This document shows, piece by piece, positions 19,377-57,958 of a DNA stretch of 64,000 nucleotides (its first letter is position 1; the number at the start of each line of letters is the position of its first letter). The notes under the pieces are model-generated. The model was given only the letters and a program-made list of their open reading frames with translations. It did no database searches and was not told the origin of the DNA. The DNA comes from an uncultured Ignavibacteria bacterium (GTDB taxonomy: Bacteria; Zixibacteria; MSB-5A5; CAIYYT01): positions 88,203 to 152,202 of the forward strand of contig CAZTYE010000007.1 in the NCBI GenBank assembly GCA_964617645.1. The letters run 5' to 3'. A program made the position numbers and the translations under genes.

Positions 19377-20690
19377 CTAAAAGAACTGCGATGTCGCCAG
19401 ATACACCGACCAATCGCCGTCCCGCGGACTGAAGGCGAGATCGAGCCGCCCGACACGACCCAGAAACTGCTTGATCGAGCCGCGCAACCCGCCACCGACC
19501 GACCAATAAGGATGGTGAGCGGCATCACTCGCACGCCGAAAGCGCCCCCAGATAAAGCCGCCATCAATAAACATCGCGGTCTGGACATAGAGCACTTTGC
19601 GATCCAGCACGCGTTGCCGCCACTCGATGTTGCCAAACAAGAGATGATCGCCCCGTTCGATTTCGCTGCGATAGCCGCGGATGTTGAAGTCGCCGGAGAC
19701 CGCGAACGGCTGCACCCGTTCATCCGCCGACGAGGTCTGCGCCTGCAGGCGGACCGCGAGATTGGTGAATCCGAAAATTCGATAAAGACGAAACGACGCG
19801 ACATGCCGCCACTTGTCCCAGTTACCCTGCGGGCGCTCGTTGATCACAGCTAAATCCTGTCCCATGTCCCAGCCGTCGTAGAAGAAATGCTCGTAGTAAA
19901 CACGACCGATGCTAACAGCCCCGGCGACGAAATAGCGCGGGTAATCAATCGTCGTTGGCAGACCCGCCGCCGGAGCACCAAGGAGCGACCAGTTCTCTCG
20001 CGAATAGCCGCCCGACAATGAGGCATAAAGCCGCTCATGCAGGCGTCGGCCAACACCGAGCGCCAGAGTCTTATTCAGATAGTCGAAGTCCCCCGAGCCG
20101 GCCCGGAACGTCAGCGGTTCGACTTCACGTCGACGCGACATTGCCACTGTGACGGCGATATCCTCGCCGAAGGCGCGCAGCCACGACAACGTCAAGTATC
20201 CCGAATTGCGATTCTCGTAGCGCCGGTAGAGAATCGCCGCTTGCAGATAGTAACCGAGGAGATTTCTCTCGCTGAGACCGATCGACCAGTCCAAGCGCCC
20301 GTCAGTGCTGCCGATCGAAGCGAGAGGCAGGAGCGTCCAGACCTCTTGCAGATGAAAGCGGATATCAACCGAATCGCCGGCCGCCGCGGCGTCAGCCCGG
20401 GTGCTCGCAAAAATGCCCAGACCTTCGATCTTGCGTCGGTCGCGGCTCAGCCGTTTCCAATTGAACAGCGCTCCCGGTCGGGAATCAATCTCATTGCGCA
20501 AAATGACTTGGCGCAACCTGTACTTGCCGGCAAAAATTATCGTCCGAACCGGCCTGCCCTCGAGCTTGGCAGAATCAAGAACCGTTGTGGTTTCTGATCG
20601 AACAGGAACGAACAGCGCGGACGCAAGCATCAGGGCGAGCAGTTCGTGAACGAGAGACGGCGAAGATCGCCGGTGGAATGCAGTTGTCAT
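19377..20690 (-). CDS. Omp85/BamA-TamA family outer membrane protein (single POTRA + beta-barrel)
   Basis: Start re-set to ATG 20690 (MTTAFHRR…, signal-like LLALMLASALFVPV). POTRA-like segment GKYRLRQVILRNEIDSRPG…, C-terminal beta-barrel ending …YLATSQFF (aromatic terminus). Confidence 0.55.
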   Translation of the reverse strand: MTTAFHRRSSPSLVHELLALMLASALFVPVRSETTTVLDSAKLEGRPVRTIIFAGKYRLRQVILRNEIDSRPGALFNWKRLSRDRRKIEGLGIFASTRADAAAAGDSVDIRFHLQEVWTLLPLASIGSTDGRLDWSIGLSERNLLGYYLQAAILYRRYENRNSGYLTLSWLRAFGEDIAVTVAMSRRREVEPLTFRAGSGDFDYLNKTLALGVGRRLHERLYASLSGGYSRENWSLLGAPAAGLPTTIDYPRYFVAGAVSIGRVYYEHFFYDGWDMGQDLAVINERPQGNWDKWRHVASFRLYRIFGFTNLAVRLQAQTSSADERVQPFAVSGDFNIRGYRSEIERGDHLLFGNIEWRQRVLDRKVLYVQTAMFIDGGFIWGRFRRASDAAHHPYWSVGGGLRGSIKQFLGRVGRLDLAFSPRDGDWSVYLATSQFF

Positions 20691-20749
20691 TCGCGATAAA
20701 ATCCATCTTTCCAGCGCAATATAGTTTGTCATACGACTGAGAATTACGA

Positions 20750-20777
20750 TAAAATACTGTGAGCAAGCCGCCGATAA
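20750..20777 (+). promoter_or_regulatory. putative sigma-28 (FliA) promoter TAAAATAC-N12-GCCGATAA upstream of CheY-like gene
   Basis: Perfect GCCGATAA -10 box at 20770-20777. -35-like TAAAATAC. Sits ~27 nt upstream of ATG 20804, with RBS AGGAGGG between. Confidence 0.4.
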
Positions 20778-20803
20778 TATAGAGCAGGAGGGTAGACTCA
20801 CAC

Positions 20804-21178
20804 ATGCCAAAGCAAGATTGTAAAGTACTGATCGTCGATGACTTCGGCAATACCGCAAAGGTGTTGAGCGAGATGTTCAGTCACTTACACGTGAACACGG
20901 ATGCCGCCGAGACTCCCGAAGAAGCCTTTATCAAGTTGAAGGCGCGCAAGTACGAGTTGGTGATCGCCGATTCGCGAATGCCGAAAGTCGACGGAGTCAG
21001 TCTGCTGAAGGAGATCCGCTCCAGTAATCCAACCACGAAAGTGGCCGTCATGTCCACTTTTGATTCCGGGCAGACGCATAAGATGGTCGTTGCCGACGGC
21101 ATCGACTATTATCTGCCCAAGCCGGTCAAGCTCATCCATATCCAGCAAATGCTTGATAAACTGAGCCTGAATTTGTAA
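20804..21178 (+). CDS. single-domain response regulator (CheY-like receiver)
   Basis: KVLIVDDF…, phospho-acceptor Asp context LVIADSRMPKVDG, conserved T/K residues; 124 aa. Confidence 0.8.
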   Translation: MPKQDCKVLIVDDFGNTAKVLSEMFSHLHVNTDAAETPEEAFIKLKARKYELVIADSRMPKVDGVSLLKEIRSSNPTTKVAVMSTFDSGQTHKMVVADGIDYYLPKPVKLIHIQQMLDKLSLNL

Positions 21179-21250
21179 TCGGGCGTGTCCGCTCGGGTTA
21201 TTGCCTTCATTTGATAACGATTCGCATCCTTGACGAGGAGGAGAAATATC

Positions 21251-22192
21251 ATGATCAAATCTCGCCACATACTCTGCGCCTTCTTCTTGTTGTGTATCGC
21301 TGCCGCGCTCTGCGGTTGCGGCGACGATAAAGCGGCAAACGAAACGAACCAGCCGGTAACCACTGAGCAACTCGCGCGAGTACGCACGATGAATGACTCG
21401 ACCATTATTCCGCTACTGAACTCGTTGCTCGCGGGCGGAATGGATTTCGTCGATAGCGTCGACGCCGGCGACTTCGGATTTGACTTGGGCAAGATGGCCG
21501 CACCCGAACACGACTCGACTTGGTTGACCTACCACGTTCTCAGTGGCTGGTGGGAAGGGTACCTGGAAACGGAAGGCATCGACGAAGACGACTCGGTCGC
21601 CTATCATTTGGTCGTGCGCGATTCATTGCAGTTTCGCAGCAACGGCGGCCAGCCACAGTTCGTGCCCGACGCCAATACGGATTACCTGCGTAACATCGGG
21701 CGCTTGCGGGCCAACGGCGTAGCTCCCGACGGTGACGAGCTCACGATCGATTGGCGCAGCGATATGATCTACGACGACCTGCTCGACGATACGATCACGA
21801 TCGACGGTCCGATCACTCTCGCGATTGACGTGAAATTCGACACGCTCGGCCAAACGATCGAAGGGCAGTGGCTTTTCGCTCTTGACGTCGAGTCATTCCA
21901 GGTTCCCAAACCGATTAATGAAGACGATCTGGTTTGTCCGCTGGCCGGTGTCGTGACCTATTCGGTTCGGGAGAATCTCTCTTCACAGTTCGTGACCGGC
22001 GAAGCCACATTTGTCACGTGGTCGGTGGAGATTGTTGTTCTTGACGAGTCCCACTTCGATGTGACCATCACTGCCGGAGCGATCGAGTTTGAAACCTATA
22101 CCGTGGAAATCCCGTGTGACGGCATTTCCGAGGGAATCGTCGTCGCCGACAAGCGGCTGCGCGAAGCGATGGTGAGTGCTCTCAAACGCTGA
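21251..22192 (+). CDS. hypothetical lipoprotein
   Basis: RBS AGGAGGAG then ATG. Signal peptide with lipobox LCGCGDDK. Acidic protein. Confidence 0.5.
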   Translation: MIKSRHILCAFFLLCIAAALCGCGDDKAANETNQPVTTEQLARVRTMNDSTIIPLLNSLLAGGMDFVDSVDAGDFGFDLGKMAAPEHDSTWLTYHVLSGWWEGYLETEGIDEDDSVAYHLVVRDSLQFRSNGGQPQFVPDANTDYLRNIGRLRANGVAPDGDELTIDWRSDMIYDDLLDDTITIDGPITLAIDVKFDTLGQTIEGQWLFALDVESFQVPKPINEDDLVCPLAGVVTYSVRENLSSQFVTGEATFVTWSVEIVVLDESHFDVTITAGAIEFETYTVEIPCDGISEGIVVADKRLREAMVSALKR

Positions 22193-22218
22193 CTGCAATC
22201 GGTAGCAAGAAGAGTACG

Positions 22219-22253
22219 GCCAACGCCGGCGCGCGCACCGGCGTTGGCTTTTC
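22219..22253 (+). terminator. rho-independent terminator
   Basis: GCCAACGCCGG…CCGGCGTTGGC hairpin followed by TTTTC. Confidence 0.6.
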
Positions 22254-22279: not shown

Positions 22280-22308
22280 TTGCTTTTTTCTGCACGGTAG
22301 TGTATAAT
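22280..22308 (+). promoter_or_regulatory. sigma-70 promoter TTGCTT-N17-TATAAT (with TG just upstream of the -10)
   Basis: Read directly from the sequence. Sits ~105 nt upstream of ATG 22414. Confidence 0.5.
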
Positions 22309-22413: not shown

Positions 22414-23292
22414 ATGCAGTCATCTTCCCGGATTTGTACAATTGCAGTCCTACTTCTGTCCTGCACTGTTGGCGCGATTGCAGCTCCGCCGATCGGCGTC
22501 AGGGTCTGGGCGCCGCGAGGTGTTGAGCCCGGCAGCCAGATCAACGTGAAAGTCATGGTCGAATCGGGAAGGGCCGTTGGTGGTTTAGACTTCACGTTGA
22601 AGTACAACGACAGCCTGTTCAGCTTTATCTCGGTTGACCAGGATACGGGTCTCAACCGTTGGGAGCTGTTCAACATCACCCATGATCTGCCCAATGCCAA
22701 GGTAGGCATCTTCACCATCGCCGATATCGACAACGGCCCGGCGCATCCCGCGCCGGATGACTTTATCCCCAAGGGAGCGATTGCCAACTACAAGTTCTTT
22801 GTCGCTCCTAACTGGTTAGACTCCAGTATCCAGCGCTTTGAGTTTGTCTGGGCATTGTGCGGCGACAACGCCGCTTCGAATACGCGGGGAGACACGCTCA
22901 TCTTGCTCAATAGTGTTCGCGATTACGATGGAAGCGTTCTCTGGGTTGAACCGGACAGTATCAACTATCCGGAGAGCGCCCGACTGCCGAACATCGGTAC
23001 TCCGGATAGCTGTTTGATTGCCGCCAATAAACTTCTGTTTGACATTGATTTCCGGAATGGTGGCGCGGCCAACTACTTCGTCTGCGGTGACGCTGACGCC
23101 AACGGAGCAGTCTCTATTGCGGACGCGGTAGCGATAATCGGATTCATCTTTTCTGGCGGGGCGGCGCCGAATCCCGATGCCGCCGGCGATGTTGACTGCA
23201 ATAGTCAAGTTTCGATTGCGGACGCAGTCTACTTGATTAATTACATTTTTGCGGGTGGTCCAGCGCCGTGCGCGTGCCAGCCTGGACGCTAA
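22414..23292 (+). CDS. secreted protein with C-terminal dockerin-like double repeat
   Basis: Signal peptide MQSSSRICTIAVLLLSCTVGAIAAP. C-terminus GDADANGAVSIADAVAIIGFIFSGG…GDVDCNSQVSIADAVYLINYIFAGGPAPCAC (two Ca-binding DxDxxG-type repeats). Confidence 0.6.
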   Translation: MQSSSRICTIAVLLLSCTVGAIAAPPIGVRVWAPRGVEPGSQINVKVMVESGRAVGGLDFTLKYNDSLFSFISVDQDTGLNRWELFNITHDLPNAKVGIFTIADIDNGPAHPAPDDFIPKGAIANYKFFVAPNWLDSSIQRFEFVWALCGDNAASNTRGDTLILLNSVRDYDGSVLWVEPDSINYPESARLPNIGTPDSCLIAANKLLFDIDFRNGGAANYFVCGDADANGAVSIADAVAIIGFIFSGGAAPNPDAAGDVDCNSQVSIADAVYLINYIFAGGPAPCACQPGR

Positions 23293-23427
23293 TCCTTCAG
23301 GATCAGGCGATGTGCTCCAGTTCCGGCGCAACGGGACTTTATCGACGACTGGAGCCCGAGCGTTTCGGCTGCAAGAGGTTCATTTTCTGGTAATTGCGGG
23401 ACAAAAGAAGCCGATAATTCCAACATC

Positions 23428-24216
23428 ATGTCGACCGAAAGCCTGTTGTCAGTCTACGCGCTCGCTTTGGGCGCATTCATCGGCTCATTTCTGAACGTCT
23501 TGATTTATCGCCTGCCCCGTCAAGAAAACTTTGTTGCCGGTCGATCCCATTGCCCTCATTGTGGCCTTGTCATTCGCTGGTACGACAACATTCCGCTAAT
23601 CAGTTTTCTGTTGCTCCGCGCGAAATGTCGCAATTGCAAGGCGAACATATCTTGGCGCTATCCGATCGTCGAGCTTCTCACGGCCCTCTTCTTCCTCATG
23701 GCTTTTCGCCTTTATGGGCTCGATTTCCAAGCGCTGATTGCTGCGGTTTTGTTTGCCATGCTTCTCGTGGTGACCTTTATCGATTTCGAGTACCTCATCA
23801 TTCCTGATCGCATCACCTATCCGGGCATGGCCCTCGGCGTCGTCCTTTCGTTTGTGAGTCCGCTCATCACACCGCTGGAATCGATTATCGGCTTGCTGGC
23901 GGGAGGCGCGACTCTCTATCTGCTGGCCGTGGTTGGCGATAAGATGCTCAAGAAAGAATCGCTGGGCGGCGGCGACATCAAATTGGCGGCGATGTTAGGC
24001 GCCTTTCTCGGGTGGAAAAACATTTTCATAATTTTCTTCGGCGCCGCGCTATTGGGTCTGATTTACGCTCTGATTCGCATGGCGTTGGCGCGGCATTCCG
24101 CGGTCGGTCGGATGATTCCGTTCGGGCCGTTCTTGGCGGCGGCCGCGATGTTGGCCTTCTTCTTCGGCCATCGCCTGCTCGACTTTTACTTCACCCGCGT
24201 GCTTGCCCTCAACTAA
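23428..24216 (+). CDS. pilD: type IV prepilin peptidase (A24 family)
   Basis: N-terminal TM then a CPHCG…CRNC zinc-finger-like motif; GGGDIKL active-site region; 262 aa. Confidence 0.85.
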   Translation: MSTESLLSVYALALGAFIGSFLNVLIYRLPRQENFVAGRSHCPHCGLVIRWYDNIPLISFLLLRAKCRNCKANISWRYPIVELLTALFFLMAFRLYGLDFQALIAAVLFAMLLVVTFIDFEYLIIPDRITYPGMALGVVLSFVSPLITPLESIIGLLAGGATLYLLAVVGDKMLKKESLGGGDIKLAAMLGAFLGWKNIFIIFFGAALLGLIYALIRMALARHSAVGRMIPFGPFLAAAAMLAFFFGHRLLDFYFTRVLALN

Positions 24217-24284
24217 CGAAAATCGTTCCACCCGGTTGCACAATCACCGTGCGGTGAGTTCTCGCTCGCGCCGATAAAGACGAT

Positions 24285-26195
24285 ATGAGCGCAAACTCCA
24301 ATCCGGGCGAAAGCCTTCTGCAACGACTGGGCATTACCTACGAGATTCGCATTCGGATCACGCTCGGTCTGCTCTTCATTCTCATCGTAATCGCCAACCT
24401 GAATTCGCTCCGATTCTTCAATCAAACGATCTCGTTGGAAGAGGAAAATCAACGACAGCAAATCGCGCAAAATCTTAATCTCATCGCAGCCACGTTGCGC
24501 AGTGGGCCGATCGAGCGCCTGCAGAGTTCGGCTGTTCGCGATCTGGCAGCGGCGGCGGGCTTTGACCGACTGCTGATCGTCGAGACCGATTTGCTGCGCG
24601 ACACCGTCTCCGGCCACAGCGACTTTCTCACTGACGAGAAATTGCGCGAGATCAGGCGGCTCTACACTCTGCCGAAGACCATTGCCGGCGGCATCCGCAA
24701 TGCGTTGCCTTCGACGATCAGCGAGACCTTCTCCGCTCCCGACGGTCAGACCTATCGTAATGCCTACTTTCACTTTCTCGGCTTCGACGGCAGGCCGTTG
24801 ACTTTGGTGGCATGGTTTGATGCTGCAGTCATCGCTGAACTGGAAAGATTCGCTCTCTTCAACACGCTGTTTCAGATCGTGAGTTTGCTTGCAGCGTCGG
24901 CCATCGCGCTACTGCTGTTAAAAATAACGTTTCGACCTTACGAACAAATCAAGAGTGAAGCAATTGCCGCCGACGTGGCGCAGACAGACAAACCCGAAGC
25001 TGTCGACTTTGCCGTCACTGCTTTTCATAACGTCATCGCCGAACTTCGCGCCAAAGAAGCCAAACTTCAGGACCTGTATGCCGAGCAGAAGCAACGCGCT
25101 GCCAGCTTGGAGCGCTACAACGAGTACGTACTCCGGGCCATGCCGACCGGGGTAATCAGTTGTGATGTGGAAGGGAAGTTGACGCGCCTGAACGAAGCCG
25201 GAGAATCGATTCTGGGATTGAATTCAGCGACGGTAATCGGCCAGCACTATCAGAATGTCCTCCGGCCATTTGCGCAACTGGCGGACCTCTTCACAATAAT
25301 TCTTCTGCGATCGGAATCAACGGCGGCGGCGGAGATCGAACTCAAGAGCACGACCGGTAAACGCCTGGCGTTGAGCGTCACCGGGTCGCCGCTTCGCGAC
25401 GCCTCCCAGCAGGTACAGGGCGCGATGATCCTGCTTACCGATCTGTCGGAGTTGCGTAGTCTGGAAGCCCAGATGCGGCTCAACGAACACATGGCGGCGT
25501 TGGGAGAAATGTCCGCCGGGCTGGCGCACCAATTGCGGAACTCGATGGGGGCGATTGTCGGTTTCGCACAACTCCTGAACAAGATTGGAGCTGCCGGCAC
25601 CGCTGCCGGGATCGCCGACAATATTCTTGCCGAAGCGCGACTGACCGGTGAAATGCTCGATCGTTTTCTCAGGCTTTCGCGGCCAAGCGAGCTGGCGCTT
25701 TCCGAAGTTAACTGGCGCGACCTAATCGACGGTGTGGCTCGTCAATTCGAAGGCATACTCCAAAGTAGAAGGCTGAAACTCCGATTGAGCATTGCCGATC
25801 TCCTGCCGGCGCTGACCGGGGACGTCGTCCTACTGAGCAACACACTGGCGAACTTGCTTCACAACGCAATACAAGCCTCGACGAACGACTCCGAGATCGT
25901 CATCGCTATTGACCACGACAACGTCGCCGGGTGCATCGAAATACGTGTTGTCGACTACGGTCGGGGAATCCCCGATGCGGACATTGACAAGCTGTTTACT
26001 CCGTTTTTCACCTCCGGTAAAGCCGGCGGCACCGGACTTGGGTTGGCGCTGGCGCAAAAGTGGGTTAATGCTCATGGCGGCCGTATCCTGGTTTCCTCGA
26101 AACTCGGCCAAGGCACGACTTTCCGTATCCAGTTGCCGACACCGCGCCAAGGCGCCAACACGGCAGAGAAGATATTGCTTGCCAACAACGGCTAA
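24285..26195 (+). CDS. PAS-domain sensor histidine kinase
   Basis: Two TM segments flank a periplasmic region. PAS region (…VISCDVEGKLTRLNEAGESILGL…). HisKA H-box HQLRNSMGAI. HATPase_c motifs (N-box LLHNAIQAS, VVDYGRGIP, GGTGLGLAL). Confidence 0.8.
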   Translation: MSANSNPGESLLQRLGITYEIRIRITLGLLFILIVIANLNSLRFFNQTISLEEENQRQQIAQNLNLIAATLRSGPIERLQSSAVRDLAAAAGFDRLLIVETDLLRDTVSGHSDFLTDEKLREIRRLYTLPKTIAGGIRNALPSTISETFSAPDGQTYRNAYFHFLGFDGRPLTLVAWFDAAVIAELERFALFNTLFQIVSLLAASAIALLLLKITFRPYEQIKSEAIAADVAQTDKPEAVDFAVTAFHNVIAELRAKEAKLQDLYAEQKQRAASLERYNEYVLRAMPTGVISCDVEGKLTRLNEAGESILGLNSATVIGQHYQNVLRPFAQLADLFTIILLRSESTAAAEIELKSTTGKRLALSVTGSPLRDASQQVQGAMILLTDLSELRSLEAQMRLNEHMAALGEMSAGLAHQLRNSMGAIVGFAQLLNKIGAAGTAAGIADNILAEARLTGEMLDRFLRLSRPSELALSEVNWRDLIDGVARQFEGILQSRRLKLRLSIADLLPALTGDVVLLSNTLANLLHNAIQASTNDSEIVIAIDHDNVAGCIEIRVVDYGRGIPDADIDKLFTPFFTSGKAGGTGLGLALAQKWVNAHGGRILVSSKLGQGTTFRIQLPTPRQGANTAEKILLANNG

Positions 26196-26281
26196 TGAAG
26201 CTATATTCTGCTCTGACAAGTAGTTAACCGCCGTCTACTGCTGCCGTTTAGCTGGCTTTGCCGAGTCAAGGAGTTCCGAGC

Positions 26282-28489
26282 ATGTCATCCCGAAGCTTGA
26301 TCGCTGTAGCAACTGCAATCTTGATGGTCATTCTCTTCAGCGTCGCCGGCGTTGCAGAGCAATTGTCGCAGGTGAAAGTTTCCATCAGCTCCCGCGACGA
26401 ACTTTCCCGCCTTGGGCAGCTTCATCTCGATGAAGTTGAGGCCGAAGATGGTAGCGTGATTGTCGTTGTCACGCACAACCAACTGCAGCTATTGGCTCAA
26501 AGTGGTCTATCCTACAGTATTGAGATCCCCGATTTGAAGGCGTTTTTCAAGAGCAGATTCGAGCCGGGCCGGGCCATGGGCGGCTATCGGACGCTGGCGG
26601 AAATCGAATTGGTAATGGACTCGATCGCCAACGCCAATCCAACGATCGTGAAGCCGAAGTGGTCGATCGGCAACACCATTGAGGGTCGACCGATCTACGT
26701 GATGAAGATCTCCGATAACCCCAACGTCGACGAAAGCGAACCCGAGGTATACTACTACGCGGCAATCCATGCTCGCGAGGTAATCACGCCGGAAGTGCTG
26801 ATCTACTTAATGCGGCACCTGACGAATTCCTACGGTGTGAACCCGGCGGTGACAGAGCTGGTAAACAGCCGCGAGATTTTTGTGTCGTGCGTCACCAATC
26901 CGGACGGTTACTACTACAACGAGTTTACCGATCCGGACGGCGGCGGCATGTGGCGGAAGAATCGCCGCGCGAATCCCGGCGGAACTTTCGGCGTCGATCT
27001 CAATCGCAATTTCGGATATCAATGGGGCTACGATAATTCCGGATCTTCGCCTGATCCCGAGGACCTGACATATCGGGGAAGCGGCCCGTTTTCGGAGCCG
27101 GAAACGCAAGCGCTGCGTGATTTCTGTATCGCCCGCAATTTCAAGGTCATTCTGACCTACCATTCCTATTCCGACTTGTTGCTCTGGCCCTGGGGCTATT
27201 TTACCGGCTACACTCCCGATCAGGATATATTCGAGCAAATTGGCGACACAATCCGCGCTATGGCCGGCTATCAAATCGGGACGCCGTGGGAGTTGTTGTA
27301 CCCCGTAAACGGCTCGACCGACGACTGGGGCTACGGCGAGCAGACACTGAAAGACAAAGCGTATTCGATGACCATTGAGGTCGGATCGAGTAGTGACAAT
27401 TTCTGGCCGCCAACGAATCGCATTACACCGCTGGTCCAGAAGAATCTCAACCCCAACCTGTTTGTCGCACGCATCGCCGACCGCCCGGAGAAGCTGCGGG
27501 TTCCGGTTTTTCCGACAATTTATCCAGTCGGCCTCATTCAAACGACAACCGTTGATCTCTACTGGCACCATGTCGATGCCGAAAATCCTGCCGTGAGTTT
27601 CGAGCTGGAGCAATTATCGAACAAGCAACGAGTCGCGGACAATCTCGAGGCGGGAAATAGCAATTGGCTTGAGAGCGGGTTTGCGATCTCAACTACCAGA
27701 GCGAAGTCGGGGACAAAATCCTACTTTGGCGGCTTTGGCGCCAACCAGAACAACGGAGTGACAACGAAATTTCCTACTGTGGTCAATTCCGGAGATAGCC
27801 TGAAATTCTGGATCTGGTACGACACCGAAAATAACTACGACTACGGATACGTTCAGGTATCGAGCAACGGCGGTCAAAGCTGGACGAACATCGCCGGCAA
27901 TATTACGACCACTAACAATCCCTTCGGGCAGAATCTGGGCAACGGCATCACCGGCAGTAGCGGTAGTGCGTGGGTGTTCGCCAAGTTCAGCCTCGCGGCT
28001 TTTGCTGGACAGGACGTACTGATTCGGTTCAAGTACATTACCGACGGCTTCGTCAATAACCCCGGAATCTGGATCGACGATGTCGAATCGATCGACGCCT
28101 TCGGCACACAATTGATGCTCTCGACCACGCTCACCGATACAACATTTCAAGTCACCGGCTTGACGCAGGATGATTATTACTACCGCGTGCGCGCCAAAGA
28201 TGCCGAGGGTCAGTACTCCGCCTACAGCGCGCTTGAACAGGTTACCGTTTCGCTGTGCGACTGGCTGGTGGGTGACGCCGACAACTCCGGTGGGTACTCG
28301 ATTGCCGACGCGGTTTTTGTTATCAACTACATTTTCAGTGGGGGAGTTGCTCCGCAGCCGAATGTCGTCGGGTCCGGCGATACCGACTGTAGCGGCGCGG
28401 TGAGTATTGCCGACGCGGTCTACCTGATCAACCACATCTTTTCTGGTGGGCCCGGGCCGGCGCCGTCCTGCGACTGTCTCGATTTCTAA
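26282..28489 (+). CDS. secreted M14-family zinc carboxypeptidase with C-terminal dockerin-like double repeat
   Basis: Signal peptide. M14 motifs HAREVITPE (zinc His/Glu) and TYHSYSDLLLWPWGY. C-terminus GDADNSGGYSIADAVFVINYIFSGG…GDTDCSGAVSIADAVYLINHIFSGGPGP…CDC. The same ~70-aa tail as the 22414 gene. Confidence 0.8.
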   Translation: MSSRSLIAVATAILMVILFSVAGVAEQLSQVKVSISSRDELSRLGQLHLDEVEAEDGSVIVVVTHNQLQLLAQSGLSYSIEIPDLKAFFKSRFEPGRAMGGYRTLAEIELVMDSIANANPTIVKPKWSIGNTIEGRPIYVMKISDNPNVDESEPEVYYYAAIHAREVITPEVLIYLMRHLTNSYGVNPAVTELVNSREIFVSCVTNPDGYYYNEFTDPDGGGMWRKNRRANPGGTFGVDLNRNFGYQWGYDNSGSSPDPEDLTYRGSGPFSEPETQALRDFCIARNFKVILTYHSYSDLLLWPWGYFTGYTPDQDIFEQIGDTIRAMAGYQIGTPWELLYPVNGSTDDWGYGEQTLKDKAYSMTIEVGSSSDNFWPPTNRITPLVQKNLNPNLFVARIADRPEKLRVPVFPTIYPVGLIQTTTVDLYWHHVDAENPAVSFELEQLSNKQRVADNLEAGNSNWLESGFAISTTRAKSGTKSYFGGFGANQNNGVTTKFPTVVNSGDSLKFWIWYDTENNYDYGYVQVSSNGGQSWTNIAGNITTTNNPFGQNLGNGITGSSGSAWVFAKFSLAAFAGQDVLIRFKYITDGFVNNPGIWIDDVESIDAFGTQLMLSTTLTDTTFQVTGLTQDDYYYRVRAKDAEGQYSAYSALEQVTVSLCDWLVGDADNSGGYSIADAVFVINYIFSGGVAPQPNVVGSGDTDCSGAVSIADAVYLINHIFSGGPGPAPSCDCLDF

Positions 28490-28880
28490 TTTCGTGGCAA
28501 CTTGTCAGAAAAATAAATTGGCGGGAATCTTTTGGGATTCCCGCCAGTGGATAGTTTGGTAAGACACTACTGGCCAAGATAACTCAAGTAACAGCAATTG
28601 ATGTGCCAATCGTCTGGAACAAGGCAAAATGCTAAACAACAACGGTTTAACATTTCGGCCTCGTTATTTTGCGACCGCAACTGTCGGATTATTGGACACA
28701 CGAACAACGCCTTGCTCTTTCTGCATATCGTAACGTCTTACGCGATAACGTATTAGAATGCTGTAAAGAGACGATTACAGGAAATTGAGATTTTCGCTCC
28801 GGCTGCCTCAAGCTGCTCAGAACTCCCAGCGCGCAATTATTTTTTTCGCGAACTAATTGAAGAGTATAATCTCCGAAGCG

Positions 28881-34598: not shown

Positions 34599-35324
34599 AT
34601 GATTAAGGGAATTTTCTCAACCGCCGCCTCGATGATTCCGCGCGTGAAGCAGCAGGAAGTTATCGCCAACAATCTCGCCAATGCCGAGACCGTCGGCTAC
34701 AAGCGCGATTCGCTATTCATGCGCATGGTCAAAAACCAAATGGGACTCAGGGAACGGTTGGCGCCGTCATGGGAGACGCGAATGATCGACAAGCTGTATA
34801 CCGATTATGCGAGCGGCGCATTGGATGCCACCGGTCGCGAACTCGACCTCGCCATTCAAGGCGACGGGTTCTTCACGGTCTTGACGCCAAACGGCGAGGC
34901 GTATACGCGCAACGGCGCGTTCAACGTCGGCGCCGATGGAATGCTGGTCAACTCCGACGGCTTTCCAGTGTTAACCGACGGCGGTCCGGTCGTTCTTCAG
35001 GGCAGCTCACTGACAGTTGCACAGGATGGCCAGATCTCAGTCGGCAATCAGGTTGTCGGCAAGCTGCGCATCGTCGATTTCGTCGAGCCGGAGAGCATCA
35101 AGAAGGTCTCAGGCTCGTTGTTCACGCTCAACCCCGGCGCGGTGCCCGTGACGCCGCAGCAACTGAACGTACGCCAAGGCTATCTCGAAAAATCGAATGT
35201 CGACGTACTGCGCGAGATGGCCAACATGATCGACTCCTACCGCCGCTTCGAGACCGGCCAGAAGATGATCCAGATTCAGGATGACACGCTCGGGAAAGCT
35301 GTCAACGAGCTACCGCGAGTTTAA
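34599..35324 (+). CDS. flgF: flagellar basal-body rod protein FlgF
   Basis: N-terminal rod motif SMIPRVKQQEVIANNLANAETVGYK. C-terminal flg_bbr_C-like YLEKSNVDVLREMANMI. Confidence 0.8.
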   Translation: MIKGIFSTAASMIPRVKQQEVIANNLANAETVGYKRDSLFMRMVKNQMGLRERLAPSWETRMIDKLYTDYASGALDATGRELDLAIQGDGFFTVLTPNGEAYTRNGAFNVGADGMLVNSDGFPVLTDGGPVVLQGSSLTVAQDGQISVGNQVVGKLRIVDFVEPESIKKVSGSLFTLNPGAVPVTPQQLNVRQGYLEKSNVDVLREMANMIDSYRRFETGQKMIQIQDDTLGKAVNELPRV

Positions 35325-35337
35325 GGAGTAGATAGTC

Positions 35338-36126
35338 ATGATTAGATCACTGCGTACCGCAGCTTCGGGCATGATGGCCCAACAAATGAATGTCGATAAC
35401 ATCGCGAACAATCTCGCGAACGTTAATACCACCGGCTTCAAGAAGTCGAAGGTCGAATTTCAGGACATCATGTATCAGAGCCTGCGCAAGCCGGGTGTCA
35501 CGGCGGCAACGGGAGCAATCGTGCCGACCTCGCTCGACATCGGTTACGGCACGCGTCCCGTCGCGACTACGAGGCAATACTCGGTCGGTGAGCTGTCACA
35601 GACCGGGAATCCGCTTGATGTGGCCATCGACGGTGACGGATTTTTCCAGATTCAAAAGACCGACGGCACTACGGCGTTCACGCGCGACGGTAGCCTCAAG
35701 TTGACAGCTGACGGCAGATTGGCCACCTCGGACGGGTTTTATCTCACTCCAGAGATCACGATTCCTGAAGACGCCGTGTCGATCGCAATCGGCTTTGACG
35801 GTCAAGTGTCGGTTGTTCAGGCCGGTTCCAATGACCCGCAGGAAATTGGCCAGATCGAACTCGCGCGATTCATCAATCCGGCCGGGCTTTCGGCAATTGG
35901 GCATAACCTCTACGAAGAAACACCGTCCTCCGGTGCGCCAATCACGGGAGCCGCCGGCGAAAACGGCTTTGGCAAGATCAATCAGGGCTATCTGGAAATG
36001 TCCAATGTCGACGTCGTGACGGAAATGGTGAATATGATCGTGGCGCAGCGCGCCTATGAAATCAACTCGAAAGCGATTCAGACGGCGGATGACATGAGCA
36101 GTCTGGTCAATAACCTGAAGCGCTAA
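35338..36126 (+). CDS. flgG: flagellar distal rod protein FlgG
   Basis: MIRSLRTAASGMMAQQMNVDNIANNLANVNTTGFKKSKVEFQD; C-terminal GYLEMSNVDVVTEMVNMIVAQRAYE; 262 aa. Confidence 0.85.
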   Translation: MIRSLRTAASGMMAQQMNVDNIANNLANVNTTGFKKSKVEFQDIMYQSLRKPGVTAATGAIVPTSLDIGYGTRPVATTRQYSVGELSQTGNPLDVAIDGDGFFQIQKTDGTTAFTRDGSLKLTADGRLATSDGFYLTPEITIPEDAVSIAIGFDGQVSVVQAGSNDPQEIGQIELARFINPAGLSAIGHNLYEETPSSGAPITGAAGENGFGKINQGYLEMSNVDVVTEMVNMIVAQRAYEINSKAIQTADDMSSLVNNLKR

Positions 36127-36127
36127 T

Positions 36128-36823
36128 ATGAAATCGATTGCAGCGATAATTCTGTTGGTTACCACTCCCCTCTGGTTGATGCCGGCGACGGCGCTATCAC
36201 AAGCGACCACGCCGGCGTCAGCAATCGAAGCGGCGATAAAGGCGCGGCTAAACGATCCGCGATTCGACTACGTCGTCAGCGTCAATCAATTGCCCGTCGG
36301 CTTTCCCGAGAAGTGCGACTCACTGCGTGTCGAGCCGATCGGCGACGGCCAGACATTCGGCAACTGCTGGGTGAAGACATTCGCCTTCAGTGGCAATGTG
36401 GTCTCATTTACGGCAACAGTCAATGTCTACGTGCATTGGTACCAAGACGCGCTGGTCAGCACAGCGGCGATCGCCCGCGGCGAGAAACTCACTTCCGACA
36501 TGTTCACCGCGCAGCGCCGCGAGATCGTCTCCCAGTCCGACCCGCTGGTAACGTCGCTCGACGAGATCTCGGGGATGGAAGTCAATCGCAGCCTTCCGCC
36601 GGGGAAGGCGCTGTCGTACTCGATGCTCAAGCCGGAAGAGTTGATTCGTCGCGGCGAGCAGGTGACAATCCTGTACCAACGGGGAAGCGTGCAGATTACC
36701 GCCACCGGCGAAGCCAAGCAATCCGGAGCCCGAGGCGAACTAATCAAAGTCCGCAATCTAAATACGAACAAAGTAATCACTGCCGAGGTGCAAGATGAAG
36801 AATCGGTGCGTGTTTCTCGCTAA
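36128..36823 (+). CDS. flgA: flagellar P-ring assembly chaperone FlgA
   Basis: Signal peptide, SAF-like C-terminal domain (GEQVTILYQRGSVQITATGEA…GELIKVRNLNTNKVI). Position between flgG and flgH. Confidence 0.65.
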   Translation: MKSIAAIILLVTTPLWLMPATALSQATTPASAIEAAIKARLNDPRFDYVVSVNQLPVGFPEKCDSLRVEPIGDGQTFGNCWVKTFAFSGNVVSFTATVNVYVHWYQDALVSTAAIARGEKLTSDMFTAQRREIVSQSDPLVTSLDEISGMEVNRSLPPGKALSYSMLKPEELIRRGEQVTILYQRGSVQITATGEAKQSGARGELIKVRNLNTNKVITAEVQDEESVRVSR

Positions 36824-37451
36824 ATCCGCATATGCGGCGACACCGCGCGTAATGGTCAATCCATATGTGATCATCAAGGCTGCAGTGGCGGTTATCTTCG
36901 TAATCATTGCGGTCGTTCCGAATGCGTCGTACGCCCAGCGGGTCGGTTCTGACGGATCATTCTTTACAGACATCAAAGCGGCCCGTATCGGCGACCTCCT
37001 CACAGTTATCGTTTACGAGAACACCGAAGCGTCGAATGAGTCGCAACTGAAGACCGAAGAGAAGAGCGATGCCTCAACAAGTTCGGGCGGCGGCGTCGGG
37101 CCGCTCAATTTTATCCCGTTGTTCGCCGCGGACAATCAGAGCGACAACACCTATGACGGCAAGGGCACCAATTCGCGGCGCGGCACGATTCGCGCGCGAA
37201 TGACCGTGGAAGTCATCGCTGAACGCAACAACGGCGATTTGGTAATCCAGGGCAATCGCGTAATCGAGATCAATTCCGAGAAGGAGACGATGACGCTCAC
37301 GGGCATCGTGCGTCGCGCGGATATCGGCCCGGACAATACGATTGACTCTTACAACATCGCCAACGCCAAAATCGAATACACCGGCAAGGGACCGGCCGCT
37401 GACGGTTCCAAGCCCGGGCTTATCACCCGGATTCTGAACTGGATATTGTAA
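36795..37451 (+). CDS. flgH: flagellar L-ring protein FlgH
   Basis: GDLLTVIVYENTEASN, NTYDGKG and TLTGIVRRADIGPDNTI motifs. Start at ATG 36795 or 36852. Confidence 0.8.
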   Translation: MKNRCVFLAKSAYAATPRVMVNPYVIIKAAVAVIFVIIAVVPNASYAQRVGSDGSFFTDIKAARIGDLLTVIVYENTEASNESQLKTEEKSDASTSSGGGVGPLNFIPLFAADNQSDNTYDGKGTNSRRGTIRARMTVEVIAERNNGDLVIQGNRVIEINSEKETMTLTGIVRRADIGPDNTIDSYNIANAKIEYTGKGPAADGSKPGLITRILNWIL

Positions 37452-37469
37452 CGGTAAAGCAGGGAAGCT

Positions 37470-38588
37470 ATGCGCCTCGTGCGAATTTTGATCATCGGAT
37501 TGATCATCTTCGTGCTGGTTAACATCGTGCAATTGATGGAAGCCCGCGCGGATGTAAGAATCAAAGACATCGCTCGAATCAACCAGGCCGGCGAGATTGA
37601 TCTCGTCGGTTACGGTTTGGTGGTCGGACTTAATGGCACCGGCGACGGCAAAGGAGCGCTGTTTACCGTCCAGTCGATTACCAACATGCTGCAGCGAATG
37701 GGCATCACTGTTCCCGCGACGCAGGTAAAAATCAAGAACGTCGCGTCGGTTCTCGTGACCGCAAAAGTAACACGCGGCGCCGTGATCGGCGACAAGCTGG
37801 ATGTTACGGTGTCATCGATCGGTGACGCTTCGACCTTGGAAGGCGGGACCCTGGTGCTGACACCGTTGTCCGATCGCAGCGGGGTTTTGTACGGCTATGC
37901 TCAAGGTTCGGTCTCCATCGGCGGATTCAATGTGCAGGTTGGCGACAACAAAATTGTCAGCAACTACACCTTGGTTGGCCGCATACCAAATGGTCTGAGC
38001 CTGGAACGCGAAACACCGCGAGAGGTAGTCGATCCGAACACGATTCGTCTATCGCTTCTAAATCCAGATTACACGACTGCCGAGCGGATCAAGAATTCGA
38101 TCAATGAAGTGCACCCGCAGTCGGCAACGCTGATCGCCGACGGCGCGATTGCGATGACCTTGCCCAGCGAAATGGGTACCGACGACGGCCGCGCGCGTTT
38201 CATCGCCTCGATCGAGAACATCACGGTCGTGCCCGATACGCGTGCACGGATCGTCATCAACGAAAAGACCGGCACTATTGTGGCCGGTGGCAACGTCACC
38301 ATTGCGCCCGTGGCGCTGGCGCACGGCAACATCACGATTGAAGTCCGCTCACTTCCCGTCATCAGCCAGCCGGAACCCTTTGGCAAGGGAGAAACGGTTC
38401 AGACTCAGGATACGCAGGTTGACATCACCGAGGAGGAAGCGCGCGTCGTGCACTTCGAAGAACGTACCAGCATCTCGGAAATCGCGGCCGCGCTGAATGC
38501 GATCGGAGCCTCGCCACGCGACATCATTGCCATCTTCCAAGCATTGAAACAGGCCGGCGCCCTGCGTGCCGAGCTGGTCGTCTTATGA
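37470..38588 (+). CDS. flgI: flagellar P-ring protein FlgI
   Basis: Signal peptide, RIKDIARINQAGEIDLVGYGLVVGLNGTGD signature. Confidence 0.85.
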   Translation: MRLVRILIIGLIIFVLVNIVQLMEARADVRIKDIARINQAGEIDLVGYGLVVGLNGTGDGKGALFTVQSITNMLQRMGITVPATQVKIKNVASVLVTAKVTRGAVIGDKLDVTVSSIGDASTLEGGTLVLTPLSDRSGVLYGYAQGSVSIGGFNVQVGDNKIVSNYTLVGRIPNGLSLERETPREVVDPNTIRLSLLNPDYTTAERIKNSINEVHPQSATLIADGAIAMTLPSEMGTDDGRARFIASIENITVVPDTRARIVINEKTGTIVAGGNVTIAPVALAHGNITIEVRSLPVISQPEPFGKGETVQTQDTQVDITEEEARVVHFEERTSISEIAAALNAIGASPRDIIAIFQALKQAGALRAELVVL

Positions 38589-39478
38589 TCAAGATCAATC
38601 CGTTGCCGCAACCGCTGGAAGTCAAATCAGCCGGGCCAATATTCGACGAAAGCTCTCAACGACGCCTGAAGCTCAAGCAGGCGACACAGGCCTTTGAGTC
38701 GATCTTCATTGCCGAACTGCTCAGGAACATGCGAGCGAGTTCGCTGATCGAGAAGAAAGAGGATGGGTTTGGCAAGGACATCATGATGGCAATGGCCGAT
38801 GAAGGCGTCGCACGGCAATTGGCCAAGTCGGGCATGTTTGGTATCGGCGAGAAGCTCTATCGGAATCTCGTGAAGCGCATTGACGCCGGTAATGAACCAG
38901 CGAGCAAGCTCAAGATCACTCAACCACGCCAAATTGACGGCATCGCGCCACCAATTGCACCAAAGATCGCAAACGTATCCGGCGCCGAACAAACAATCGC
39001 CGCGAGGGAGACTGAACAGCCGACACAAGCCACGGTCGTCAAGTCACAAGTCGCCAAAGAAGCAACACCGCGAAGTTCGCATCCGAGCCTCCAAAAATTC
39101 ATCAAGCACATCGAATCCGCCGCCGCAGCGAACGATCTTCCGGTTGATCTACTGGAAAAAATCATCATACAAGAGTCCGCGGGCAACTCCCGTGCGATTT
39201 CACCGAAAGGCGCAGTCGGCCTGATGCAGTTGATGCCGGACACGGCGCGAGCGGTGGGAGTGCGCAATCGCTTTGATCCGGCGCAAAACATTCACGGCGG
39301 GGCGCGTTATCTCCGCCAGATGATCGATCGTTTCGGCGATTTGGAACAGGCGATTGCCGCCTACAACGCCGGACCGGGAAATGTCGTGAAATACGGCGGA
39401 GTGCCGCCCTTTGCTGAGACGCAGGATTACGTACGCACTGTGCTCGGCGACCGATCGGCTGCTCCGACAGTTAAGTAA
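38585..39478 (+). CDS. flgJ: FlgJ-like rod-binding protein fused to SLT-type lytic transglycosylase domain
   Basis: N-terminal rod-binding motif LKQATQAFESIFIAELLRNMRAS. C-terminal SLT motifs ESAGNSRAISPKGAVGLMQLMP…AYNAGPG. Confidence 0.7.
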   Translation: MIKINPLPQPLEVKSAGPIFDESSQRRLKLKQATQAFESIFIAELLRNMRASSLIEKKEDGFGKDIMMAMADEGVARQLAKSGMFGIGEKLYRNLVKRIDAGNEPASKLKITQPRQIDGIAPPIAPKIANVSGAEQTIAARETEQPTQATVVKSQVAKEATPRSSHPSLQKFIKHIESAAAANDLPVDLLEKIIIQESAGNSRAISPKGAVGLMQLMPDTARAVGVRNRFDPAQNIHGGARYLRQMIDRFGDLEQAIAAYNAGPGNVVKYGGVPPFAETQDYVRTVLGDRSAAPTVK

Positions 39479-39519
39479 ACAACGCCGATTTCCGACAAGA
39501 TTAGTGAAGAGGAACCGCT

Positions 39520-40023
39520 TTGGATAACAAGGTCTTACAACTAATCAAGCTGATTGGCGAGGAAGTCCACATTTTTGAGACTTTCCTTGAACACCTCAAC
39601 CGCCAGCAGGATGCGCTGGTAGCGAACGACATCACGGCACTCGAGGCGGTTACCCGCGATCAGGAGGAATTGGGTCTGCGTACTCAGCAGCTCGAACAAG
39701 AACGTCGCGCCCTGGTGACGGCGATCTGCGGAGAACTGAAGCGCGGTGACTCGGACATCACTCTCAGCGAATTGCGCAAGCTCGTGAGCGAACCGGAATC
39801 CATGCAAATTCACGCCATGCAGTCAACACTGCTATCGCTTCATGATCAGATTGCCAAGATCAAGCAGCGCAATGATTTTCTGATCCGCAAATCCATGGAG
39901 TATATCACCGACACAATAAACCATCTTGGTCTGGCTGAGACGCCTGCGAAAGCGGCCTATACGGTCGAATCGGTGCGCACGACTCCGTTCGTGAAAACCT
40001 CGTTGGTGGATCGGAGAGCGTAG
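39520..40023 (+). CDS. putative FlgN-like flagellar export chaperone
   Basis: 167-aa helical protein immediately upstream of flgK (conserved synteny). TTG start with RBS GAAGAGGA. No motif-level confirmation. Confidence 0.45.
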   Translation: MDNKVLQLIKLIGEEVHIFETFLEHLNRQQDALVANDITALEAVTRDQEELGLRTQQLEQERRALVTAICGELKRGDSDITLSELRKLVSEPESMQIHAMQSTLLSLHDQIAKIKQRNDFLIRKSMEYITDTINHLGLAETPAKAAYTVESVRTTPFVKTSLVDRRA

Positions 40024-40025
40024 CG

Positions 40026-41408: not shown

Positions 41409-41426
41409 ACAACCACGGAGGGTGGA

Positions 41427-57892: not shown

Positions 57893-57907
57893 TTCGCTGA
57901 TTATTTT

Positions 57908-57941: not shown

Positions 57942-57958
57942 TATTCGCTGAGGTGAGA

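What the first reader, a model, noticed from the sequence alone, without database searches (positions are those of the whole stretch)
22414..28489. Two secreted proteins share a cysteine-bracketed double-dockerin-like C-terminal tail, flanking a prepilin peptidase and a PAS sensor kinase
The last ~70 aa of the 292-aa protein (22414-23292) and of the M14 carboxypeptidase (26282-28489) are near-identical in pattern: C…GDADxxGxxSIADAVxxINYIFSGG.AP.P…GDxDCxxxVSIADAVYLINxIFxGGPxP…C.C. These are tandem calcium-binding dockerin-type repeats bracketed by conserved cysteines. Outside cellulosome-forming Firmicutes such tails are poorly understood. They may act as a surface-anchoring or cargo-sorting tag. 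Their clustering with pilD and a two-component kinase hints at a co-regulated secretion/attachment module. A strong sigma-70 promoter (TTGCTT-N17-TATAAT, 22280-22308) precedes the first of them.
Basis: seen in the sequence. Interest (0 to 1): 0.55.

Follow-up and report, generated by a model that had tools for sequence, protein, structure and literature searches.

The report
Zixibacteria cohesin–dockerin surface docking system
The shared tail is a real calcium-binding dockerin domain with conserved cysteines, and the smaller protein also carries the matching cohesin receptor, so this uncultured Zixibacteria genome appears to use a cellulosome-style plug-and-socket system to display peptidases and other secreted proteins rather than cellulases.

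Summary
Both ORFs exist, and their last ~70 aa are 60% identical (E 2e-22). Each tail scores above the Pfam Dockerin_1 threshold. Each tail is one dockerin module made of two near-identical EF-hand repeats, with four conserved cysteines.

The organism is a Zixibacterium (FCB group). The same tail ends hundreds of otherwise unrelated exported proteins there, with at least 8-11 per genome. These include M14, M1, M28 and S8 peptidases, beta-propellers, beta-helices and a multihaem cytochrome.

The cohesin-like module has 1165 relatives. Most sit in giant proteins that end in a T9SS sorting domain. Others are multi-cohesin, scaffoldin-like proteins.

Best reading: a non-cellulolytic cohesin-dockerin display system on a diderm surface.

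pilD-kinase-M14 order recurs in two relatives, but inside a housekeeping block. Coh-Doc/pilD adjacency is seen only in this window.

This is a new member of a known kind. A Cloacimonadota precedent exists, and binding is untested.

The parts
22414..23292 (+). Coh-Doc gene: 292-aa exported protein made of a signal peptide, a cohesin-like module and a dockerin
   Evidence: ORF. Pfam Cohesin 27.1 bits and Dockerin_1 25.5 bits, both above the gathering score. About 29 full-length orthologues at 45-66% identity.
22414..22485 (+). Signal peptide (aa 1-24, MQSSSRICTIAVLLLSCTVGAIA|AP)
   Evidence: Read from the sequence. A hydrophobic N-terminus is conserved in the orthologue alignment A1. The cleavage site is inferred.
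22486..23073 (+). Cohesin-like module (aa ~25-220), an extended ~195-aa version with invariant C149 and C200
23083..23277 (+). Dockerin module of Coh-Doc (aa 224-288): Ca loops D226-D237 and D259-D270; cysteines C224, C262, C286, C288
26282..28489 (+). M14 carboxypeptidase - InhA-like MAM - dockerin protein (735 aa)
   Evidence: Pfam M14 E 1.6e-70 and MAM E 6e-26. The architecture is conserved in more than 100 homologues at 45-63% identity, and the named ones are mostly Zixibacteria.
28262..28477 (+). Dockerin module of the M14 protein (aa 669-740 in 743-aa numbering); cysteines C667 (just upstream), C711, C738, C740
   Evidence: PF00404 at 25.9 bits when the tail is scanned alone. 60% identity to the Coh-Doc tail.
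23428..24216 (+). Prepilin peptidase (PilD/A24), a neighbour that is not shown to be functionally linked
   Evidence: Pfam A24_N_bact E 1e-35 and Peptidase_A24 E 1e-22. Adjacent to HK-M14 in L088 and L089 but not in L005 or L006.
24285..26195 (+). PAS sensor histidine kinase, directly upstream of M14
   Evidence: Pfam PAS, HisKA and HATPase_c. HK-M14 adjacency is kept in L005, L088 and L089 and lost in L006.
22218..22249 (+). Terminator-like hairpin between the lipoprotein gene and the Coh-Doc gene
   Evidence: 12-bp stem with 9 GC pairs followed by a T-run. Consensus match only.
22280..22308 (+). Promoter-like site TTGCTT-N17-TATAAT
   Evidence: Sequence read. The -10 is perfect, but the -35 matches 3 of 6, so the scan did not report it. 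Function untested.
21230..22192 (+). Conserved lipoprotein of unknown function between the response regulator and Coh-Doc
   Evidence: Lipobox Cys present in the window, L003 and L007 copies, which are 27-38% identical. No Pfam or NCBIfam hit.
20804..21178 (+). Single-domain response regulator, a conserved upstream neighbour of Coh-Doc
   Evidence: Pfam Response_reg. Present directly upstream of Coh-Doc, or of lipoprotein plus Coh-Doc, in L001, L002, L003 and L007.
19377..20858 (-). Omp85-family outer-membrane protein (POTRA plus barrel), transcribed divergently from the response regulator. The true start is probably downstream of the listed TTG.
   Evidence: Weak POTRA, BamA and Omp85_fam hits. 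Conserved position in 4 of 4 related loci.

Best explanation
Both tails are type-I-like dockerin modules. Each has two near-identical EF-hand calcium loops with helices and is stapled by cysteines (probably two disulfides formed in the periplasm).

In this Zixibacterium they act as plugs. They attach Sec-exported proteins non-covalently, and dependent on calcium, to cohesin-like sockets.

In this phylum the sockets occur in three settings:
(a) giant surface proteins that end in a T9SS type-A sorting domain, and so are presumably attached to the outer membrane;
(b) multi-cohesin scaffoldin-like proteins that carry a second dockerin class;
(c) small Coh-Doc proteins such as the 292-aa one here, which would act as an adaptor or extender, or might self-associate.

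The M14 carboxypeptidase is one of many cargoes. The cargo set is dominated by peptidases, beta-propellers and adhesin-like repeats, so this is a general exoprotein display system and not a cellulosome.

Shown here: domain identities, conservation, phyletic spread, and co-occurrence of both module types within the phylum, including one complete genome.

Inferred: actual binding, which cohesin takes which dockerin, disulfide formation, surface location, and the route across the outer membrane.
For: - Calcium loops. Positions 1, 3 and 12 are D or N in 97-100% of 114 tails, in both repeats. The two repeats are on average 72% identical to each other.
- Cysteines. Four are present in 76 of 114 tails, and of the 38 variants 28 keep an even number (most often C2 with C3 or C4) while 10 keep three.
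- Partner pool. An exhaustive profile search finds 1165 proteins with the module. Of the best 149, 105 end in a T9SS CTD (18 of them with 2-5 modules) and 29 end in a dockerin (22 of them multi-cohesin).
- Taxonomy. Every name given for the cohesin-module proteins looked up is Zixibacteria or FCB group, and named dockerin-tail proteins are Zixibacteria or generic 'bacterium'.
- Co-occurrence in one genome. P0277 (cohesin-like module plus T9SS CTD) and the M14-dockerin orthologue P0176 are both on LS998015.1.
- Tail census. More than 537 confirmed sites in species-representative genomes, with 8-11 per genome within the best 80 alone.
- Cargo. 47 tail proteins carry extracytoplasmic domain types. 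97% have an N-terminal hydrophobic segment, against 50% of control ORFs.
Against: - No binding data exist, and no complex could be modelled with these tools.
- The cohesin model is of medium quality (pLDDT 69) and is poor for aa 146-220. Pfam covers only profile positions 9-54 of 139.
- The window contains no T9SS-CTD cohesin protein, so anchoring is inferred from other genomes of the phylum.
- Dockerin-tailed proteins have no recognised signal for crossing the outer membrane.
- The per-genome census is a lower bound taken from a truncated scan.
- The signal-peptide test is a crude heuristic with a 50% background.
Confidence: 0.6

Rival explanations
1. The tail is mainly a C-terminal secretion or sorting signal. 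A dedicated export or attachment machinery would recognise it, as with the T9SS CTD or PEP-CTERM, and no cohesin would be involved.
For: The tail is always at the extreme C-terminus. Its sequence is unusually uniform across unrelated cargo, with 66% mean column identity. It is a phylum-wide family with many copies per genome. The cargo lacks any other known signal for crossing the outer membrane.
Against: It has the dockerin fold and sequence with intact calcium loops. A large matching cohesin-like family exists in the same phylum. It shows no similarity to Por_Secre_tail or other sorting-domain models. Dockerins that all bind one cohesin type within a species are also very uniform in clostridia (established knowledge), so uniformity does not discriminate between the two readings.
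Confidence: 0.15
2. The tail is a calcium-binding stabilising or envelope/glycan-binding module, and the cohesin-like modules are structural Ig-like spacers. The co-occurrence of the two would then reflect shared ancestry rather than a working pair.
For: Many non-cellulosomal dockerins and cohesins have no demonstrated partner (PMC9012536). The cohesin-like module in giant proteins sits at a fixed place about 300 aa before the CTD, as a structural element might. The binding face could not be examined.
Against: Multi-cohesin proteins with 2-5 modules and a terminal dockerin have the classic scaffoldin architecture. A second dockerin class is found specifically on these proteins, which fits a hierarchy of specific pairs. 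Archaeal non-cellulosomal pairs have been shown to bind (cited in PMC9012536).
Confidence: 0.15
3. The two tail proteins, pilD and the PAS kinase would form one co-regulated secretion/attachment unit, for example with PilD-dependent type II secretion exporting the tail proteins under kinase control.
For: pilD-HK-M14 order is conserved in L088 and L089, and HK-M14 in L005. All four genes are on the same strand with short gaps and no strong terminator between them. PilD matures type II secretion pseudopilins (established knowledge), and type II secretion is a plausible route across the outer membrane.
Against: Coh-Doc is never next to pilD in 4 other genomes, and it lies on another contig in CAZNWJ01. 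The conserved block also includes dnaJ, prmA, rsmE, xseAB, ispA and dxs, so the order looks like general collinearity. L006 has M14-Doc with neither pilD nor the kinase. A promoter-like site lies directly before M14. No cognate response regulator or type II secretion gene lies in the block.
Confidence: 0.1

Closest known systems
Type I dockerin-cohesin pairs of clostridial cellulosomes (e.g. Acetivibrio thermocellum 1OHZ, OlpA/OlpC complexes 3UL4 and 4DH2)
   Same: The dockerin has two duplicated EF-hand repeats and the cohesin is a beta jelly-roll. These structures are the top sequence-profile and fold matches. The repeats are highly symmetric, as in dual-binding-mode dockerins.
   Different: The host is a diderm of the FCB group. 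The dockerin carries four conserved cysteines. The cohesin is about 195 aa, against about 140, and has its own Cys pair. The cargo is peptidases, beta-propellers and repeats with no glycoside hydrolases in the top families. Anchoring would be through a T9SS CTD rather than SLH domains or sortase.
Adaptor scaffoldins carrying both cohesin and dockerin (e.g. A. cellulolyticus ScaB dockerin / ScaC cohesin, 4UYP)
   Different: Coh-Doc has only one cohesin and is 292 aa long. Its dockerin is of the same class as the cargo dockerins, so self-association or chain extension is possible. It is conserved next to an Omp85-family gene and a response regulator.
Cellulosome-like system proposed in silico for Cloacimonadota 'Ca. 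Stygibacter' (Williams et al. 2021, PMC8542988)
   Same: It is also in an FCB-group diderm. It has dockerin-tailed peptidases and hydrolases plus a tandem-cohesin scaffoldin ending in a T9SS CTD.
   Different: It is a different phylum. The Cloacimonadota scaffoldin also carries CBM2/CBM3 domains. No cysteine-stapled dockerin or small Coh-Doc protein was described there. Neither system has been tested experimentally.
Non-cellulosomal cohesin/dockerin proteins of archaea (Archaeoglobus fulgidus 2XDH; ANME archaea, PMC9012536)
   Different: Those are archaeal envelopes with S-layer anchoring. Here the host has an outer membrane and T9SS-type anchors.
T9SS C-terminal sorting domain (Pfam Por_Secre_tail, NCBIfam T9SS type A)
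   Same: It is a conserved C-terminal module of about 70-80 aa on many unrelated exported proteins of FCB-group bacteria.
   Different: The fold and sequence are unrelated. The tail here matches only Dockerin_1. The T9SS CTD is instead found on the cohesin-bearing proteins.

Membership tests
Dockerin type I (Pfam PF00404) | HMM score above the curated gathering threshold | tested here: met
   25.5-29.1 bits (Coh-Doc) and 25.9 bits (M14 tail alone) against a cut-off of 22.9. 31 of 31 related tails match.
Dockerin type I (Pfam PF00404) | Two duplicated segments of about 22 residues, each an EF-hand-like loop (D-x-D/N-x-N/S/D-G-x-x-x-x-x-D) followed by a helix | tested here: met
   Loops D226-D237 and D259-D270 in Coh-Doc, D673-D684 and D708-D719 in M14. 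Positions 1, 3 and 12 are conserved in 97-100% of 114 tails.
Dockerin type I (Pfam PF00404) | Dockerin three-dimensional fold | tested here: met
Dockerin type I (Pfam PF00404) | Calcium-dependent binding to a cohesin | not testable with these tools
   Needs ITC, ELISA or native PAGE with and without EDTA.
Cohesin (Pfam PF00963) | HMM score above the gathering threshold | tested here: met
   27.1-28 bits against 24.1, but covering only profile positions 9-54 of 139. 16 of 20 orthologues match.
Cohesin (Pfam PF00963) | Nine-stranded beta jelly-roll fold | tested here: met
Cohesin (Pfam PF00963) | Binds a dockerin through the 8-3-6-5 sheet face | not testable with these tools
   No coordinates or complex modelling were available.
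Cellulosome (sensu stricto) | Scaffoldin with several cohesins | tested here: met
   Not present in the window, but present in the phylum. 40 of the best 149 cohesin-module proteins have 2-5 modules, e.g. P0241, P0242 and P0275.
Cellulosome (sensu stricto) | Dockerin-borne cellulases or hemicellulases | tested here: not met
   The cargo in 47 tail proteins is peptidases M28, M1 and S8, SBBP, FG-GAP, TSP_3, He_PIG and beta-helix. No GH family appears in the 25 commonest families. The window cargo is an M14 peptidase.
T9SS C-terminal sorting domain | Match to Por_Secre_tail or T9SS type A/B models | tested here: not met
   The tails hit only Dockerin_1 in Pfam and nothing in NCBIfam.
Prepilin peptidase A24 (PilD) | N-terminal A24_N domain plus the Peptidase_A24 membrane domain | tested here: met
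   E 1e-35 and 1e-22.

The most novel reading that the evidence does not exclude
Cohesin-dockerin pairing may serve as a piggy-back export adaptor. The dockerin-tailed proteins have no T9SS sorting domain. They would fold in the periplasm with calcium and disulfides, plug into cohesin modules on T9SS substrates there, and be carried through the T9SS translocon. They would then be displayed together with their carrier. One sorting domain would thus serve dozens of CTD-less cargo proteins. A related possibility is that the 292-aa Coh-Doc polymerises head to tail into a surface fibre.
Probability: 0.1. Interest if true: 0.8.

Novelty: new member of a known kind. Interest (0 to 1): 0.42.

Why it matters
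Zixibacteria are widespread, uncultured sediment and soil bacteria whose cell-surface biology is unknown. If the pairing works as proposed, much of their exoproteome is organised by a plug-and-socket system anchored through the type IX secretion system. That exoproteome includes peptidases, beta-propeller proteins and even a multihaem cytochrome.

This would extend the cohesin-dockerin principle from cellulose-degrading Firmicutes to protein-degrading diderms. It would also raise a concrete question: how do dockerin-tailed proteins cross the outer membrane?

The disulfide-stapled, highly symmetric dockerin and its ~195-aa cohesin could also be useful orthogonal parts for synthetic protein scaffolds. 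No paper in the searched library mentions dockerin or cohesin together with Zixibacteria.

Tried and rejected
- Exact look-up of the window's own Coh-Doc protein in the contig index found nothing. The source contig is known only as a 211,007-bp NCBI record.
- The profile search with the tail alignment in the word-indexed database returned mostly short fragments: 639 hits among only 1632 candidates. It is not a usable census.
- Structure prediction of the conserved 320-aa lipoprotein failed. No fold search was attempted on it.
- The lipoprotein shows no similarity to the cohesin or dockerin profiles.
- Disulfide pairing could not be assigned.
- Peer et al. 2009, the key review on non-cellulosomal modules, is not held. 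It is cited only through other papers and from my own knowledge.
- I first concluded that pilD-HK-M14 was not conserved, based on L005 and L006. L088 and L089 then showed the trio is conserved among closer relatives, and I revised the conclusion.
- Lipoprotein status for Coh-Doc was rejected, because the Cys in its signal peptide is not conserved in orthologues.


Full report
**What is in the window**

The four genes are as described:
- a 292-aa ORF at 22414-23292;
- a prepilin peptidase at 23428-24216;
- a PAS/HisKA/HATPase_c histidine kinase at 24285-26195;
- an M14 carboxypeptidase with an InhA-like MAM domain at 26282-28489 (Pfam).

The two outer proteins align over their last ~72 residues at 60% identity, E 2e-22. 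Scanned alone, each tail passes the Pfam Dockerin_1 gathering score: 29.1 and 25.9 bits against 22.9. At DNA level the tails are only about 60-65% identical and show many synonymous differences. The resemblance is therefore maintained by selection on the protein and is not a recent duplication. A motif scan and a local HMM search find no third tail in the 64 kb.

**Anatomy of the tail**

Each tail is one dockerin module, not a double dockerin. It consists of two 24-residue repeats. Each repeat is an EF-hand-type loop followed by a helix.
- Coh-Doc: D226-x-D-x-N-G-x-x-S-I-A-D237 and D259-x-D-C-N-S-x-x-S-I-A-D270.
- M14 protein: the equivalent D673-D684 and D708-D719.

I aligned 114 related tails. 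Loop positions 1, 3 and 12 are D or N in 97-100% of them, in both repeats. The two repeats of one tail are on average 72% identical to each other.

Four cysteines are conserved:
- C1 lies just before the first loop;
- C2 lies at position 4 of the second loop;
- C3 and C4 form a C-x-x-C or C-x-C motif at the extreme C-terminus.

All four are present in 76 of 114 tails. Of the 38 variants, 28 keep an even number: C2+C3 in 12, C2+C4 in 7, C1+C3 in 4, C1+C4 in 3, and none in 2; the other 10 keep three cysteines. This pattern suggests two disulfide staples, but I could not assign the pairing. In the M14 tail, C1 lies five residues further upstream than usual.

**The 292-aa protein also carries a cohesin**

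Pfam Cohesin scores 27.1 bits on residues 36-79, against a threshold of 24.1. Sixteen of 20 orthologous N-domains hit the same model.

A profile search of PDB sequences finds dockerins at E 2e-6. Cohesins appear only weakly there (E~0.3), but in a consistent register.

So the protein is signal peptide, then an extended cohesin-like module of ~195 aa with invariant C149 and C200, then a dockerin.

**Organism and spread of the tail**

Named homologues are Candidatus Zixiibacteriota, in the FCB group. Some assemblies carry the submitter label 'uncultured Ignavibacteria'.

The 292-aa protein has about 29 full-length orthologues at 45-66% identity. More than 200 further proteins share only the tail, which is always C-terminal. 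The M14-MAM-dockerin architecture is conserved in more than 100 homologues at 45-63% identity.

Within the best 80 alone, single assemblies contribute 11, 10 and 8 loci.

I tallied Pfam domains in 47 complete tail proteins:
- TSP_3 in 10;
- He_PIG in 8;
- SBBP in 6;
- FG-GAP_3 in 6;
- Peptidase_M28 in 4;
- Peptidase_M1 in 4;
- Peptidase_S8 in 2;
- beta-helix, Laminin_G_3 and BNR also occur;
- no glycoside hydrolase family is among the 25 commonest.

One relative, P0050, has five CxxCH haem motifs plus the tail.

I applied a crude test for an N-terminal hydrophobic segment. It is positive for 97% of tail ORFs and for 50% of other ORFs in the same loci. No typically cytoplasmic domain was seen.

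**Candidate partners**

I ran an exhaustive HMMER search of 1.84 billion representative proteins with the cohesin-like module (alignment A2). It found 1165 proteins at E<=1e-3, 620 at E<=1e-10 and 135 at E<=1e-30.

I classified the best 149 by their C-terminus:
- 105 end in a T9SS type-A sorting domain (...KKMxLLK; Pfam Por_Secre_tail). Many of these are giants of 1300-3600 aa with the module about 300 residues before the C-terminus. Eighteen of them have 2-5 modules.
- 29 end in a dockerin, and 22 of those have 2-4 cohesin modules.
- 15 end otherwise, several because the sequences are truncated.

Every name available for these proteins is Zixibacteria or FCB group, including 'T9SS type A sorting domain-containing protein'. 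One of them, P0277, lies on the same 3.5-Mb genome (LS998015.1) as an M14-dockerin orthologue.

The multi-cohesin proteins tend to carry a second dockerin class, with four cysteines in a different arrangement: CC...C in the linker...C. This is reminiscent of the type I / type II hierarchy of clostridial cellulosomes.

**Gene neighbourhood**

The window is a junction of two conserved blocks.

Upstream block. The order ABC transporter, small genes and an Omp85-family gene on the minus strand, then divergently a response regulator, an optional 305-320-aa lipoprotein and Coh-Doc, is found in 4 of 4 other genomes examined. In all four, Coh-Doc is followed by DUF899 or EamA genes, never pilD.

Downstream block. 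pilD-HK-M14-xseA-xseB-ispA-dxs-nadK recurs in L088 and L089, where dnaK-dnaJ-prmA-rsmE precede it. L005 keeps HK-M14 without pilD, and L006 keeps neither.

In assembly CAZNWJ01, Coh-Doc and pilD-HK-M14 lie on different contigs.

Only the M14 gene has a recurrent link to pilD and the kinase, and that link sits inside housekeeping collinearity. This is weak evidence for function.

A hairpin at 22218-22249 and the TTGCTT-N17-TATAAT site at 22280-22308 suggest that Coh-Doc has its own transcript. The -35 element is weak, and both features are consensus matches only.

**Most likely mechanism (confidence about 0.6)**

1. The proteins are exported by Sec.
2. The dockerin folds with calcium and disulfides in the periplasm.
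3. The proteins cross the outer membrane by an unknown route. Type II secretion is the conventional candidate.
4. The dockerins plug into cohesin-like modules on T9SS-anchored giant proteins, on multi-cohesin scaffoldins and on small Coh-Doc adaptors.
5. The result is a non-cellulolytic display system on the cell surface.

Domain identities, conservation and co-occurrence are shown by the calls cited above. Binding, specificity, disulfides and localisation are inferred.

**Rivals**

- A pure sorting signal (confidence 0.15).
- A stabilising or envelope-binding module with no working cohesin partner (0.15).

**Comparison with what is known**

Cohesin and dockerin modules outside cellulosomes are long known (Peer et al. 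2009, cited in PMC9012536 and PMC8542988). ANME archaea have dockerin proteins with up to five cohesins (PMC9012536). Williams et al. 2021 proposed, from genomes alone, dockerin-tailed enzymes plus a tandem-cohesin scaffoldin with a T9SS CTD in Cloacimonadota (PMC8542988).

No paper in the searched library links Zixibacteria with dockerin, cohesin or cellulosomes in this sense.

I therefore rate this a new member of a known kind. Its distinctive details are a cysteine-stapled, highly symmetric dockerin, an enlarged cohesin, a conserved minimal Coh-Doc protein and peptidase-rich cargo. It fails the cellulosome definition on cargo, and it is not a T9SS sorting domain.

Noticed in passing
window 19377-22192, and L001, L002, L003, L007: There is a conserved block upstream of Coh-Doc. 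An ABC transporter, two small genes and an Omp85-family (POTRA) outer-membrane protein lie on the minus strand. Divergent from them are a single-domain response regulator and, in 3 of 5 genomes, a 305-320-aa lipoprotein with no known domain. Whether the Omp85 protein or the lipoprotein handles or anchors Coh-Doc is unknown.
   Followed up: partly
P0243, P0245, P0247, P0258, P0260, P0261, P0307, P0364, P0388 (related Zixibacteria proteins): A second dockerin class is found on multi-cohesin proteins. Its pattern is CCxxRGN[VI]DG...I[DN]I[SA]DL..LV.Y[LM]F..G...C..EA[DN]V.G...I[SA]D...LV.Y[LM]F.GGP.P..C, with four cysteines in a different arrangement. This suggests a two-tier specificity hierarchy.
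   Followed up: partly
P0050 (related protein, on a 488-kb contig): This 448-aa protein has a signal peptide, five CxxCH haem motifs (Pfam Cytochrom_c3_2) and the same dockerin tail. It is a multihaem cytochrome that would be docked on the cell surface.
   Followed up: partly
window 26179-26207 and 28519-28546: A promoter-like site (TTGCCA-17-TATATT, 10 of 12 matches) lies directly upstream of the M14 gene, and a hairpin lies just after it. These hint that M14 can be transcribed on its own.
   Followed up: no
window 34599-43847 and 55700-60763: A flagellar gene cluster is inferred from N-terminal sequences resembling FlgF/G, FlgA, FlgH, FlgI, FlgJ, FlgK, FlgL, flagellin and FliD. This Zixibacterium is probably motile. 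The genes were not checked with Pfam.
   Followed up: no
window 1805-3187, 3247-5643, 5904-7466: A 460-aa protein has a C-terminal AHH nuclease domain (HNH/EndoVII superfamily), typical of polymorphic toxins. Two large ORFs of 798 and 520 aa with no Pfam match follow it.
   Followed up: no
L010, L011, L017, L021, L028, L038, L039, L046, L049, L065, L070: Tail-bearing genes often lie in pairs within 6 kb. In L065 the Coh-Doc orthologue is directly followed by another dockerin-tailed gene.
   Followed up: partly
L009-L087 record titles: Many assemblies that hold Coh-Doc and tail genes are titled 'uncultured Ignavibacteria bacterium' (TPA assemblies), while protein-level names say Zixibacteria. 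The titles may be mislabelled, or the system may extend to a second FCB lineage.
   Followed up: no
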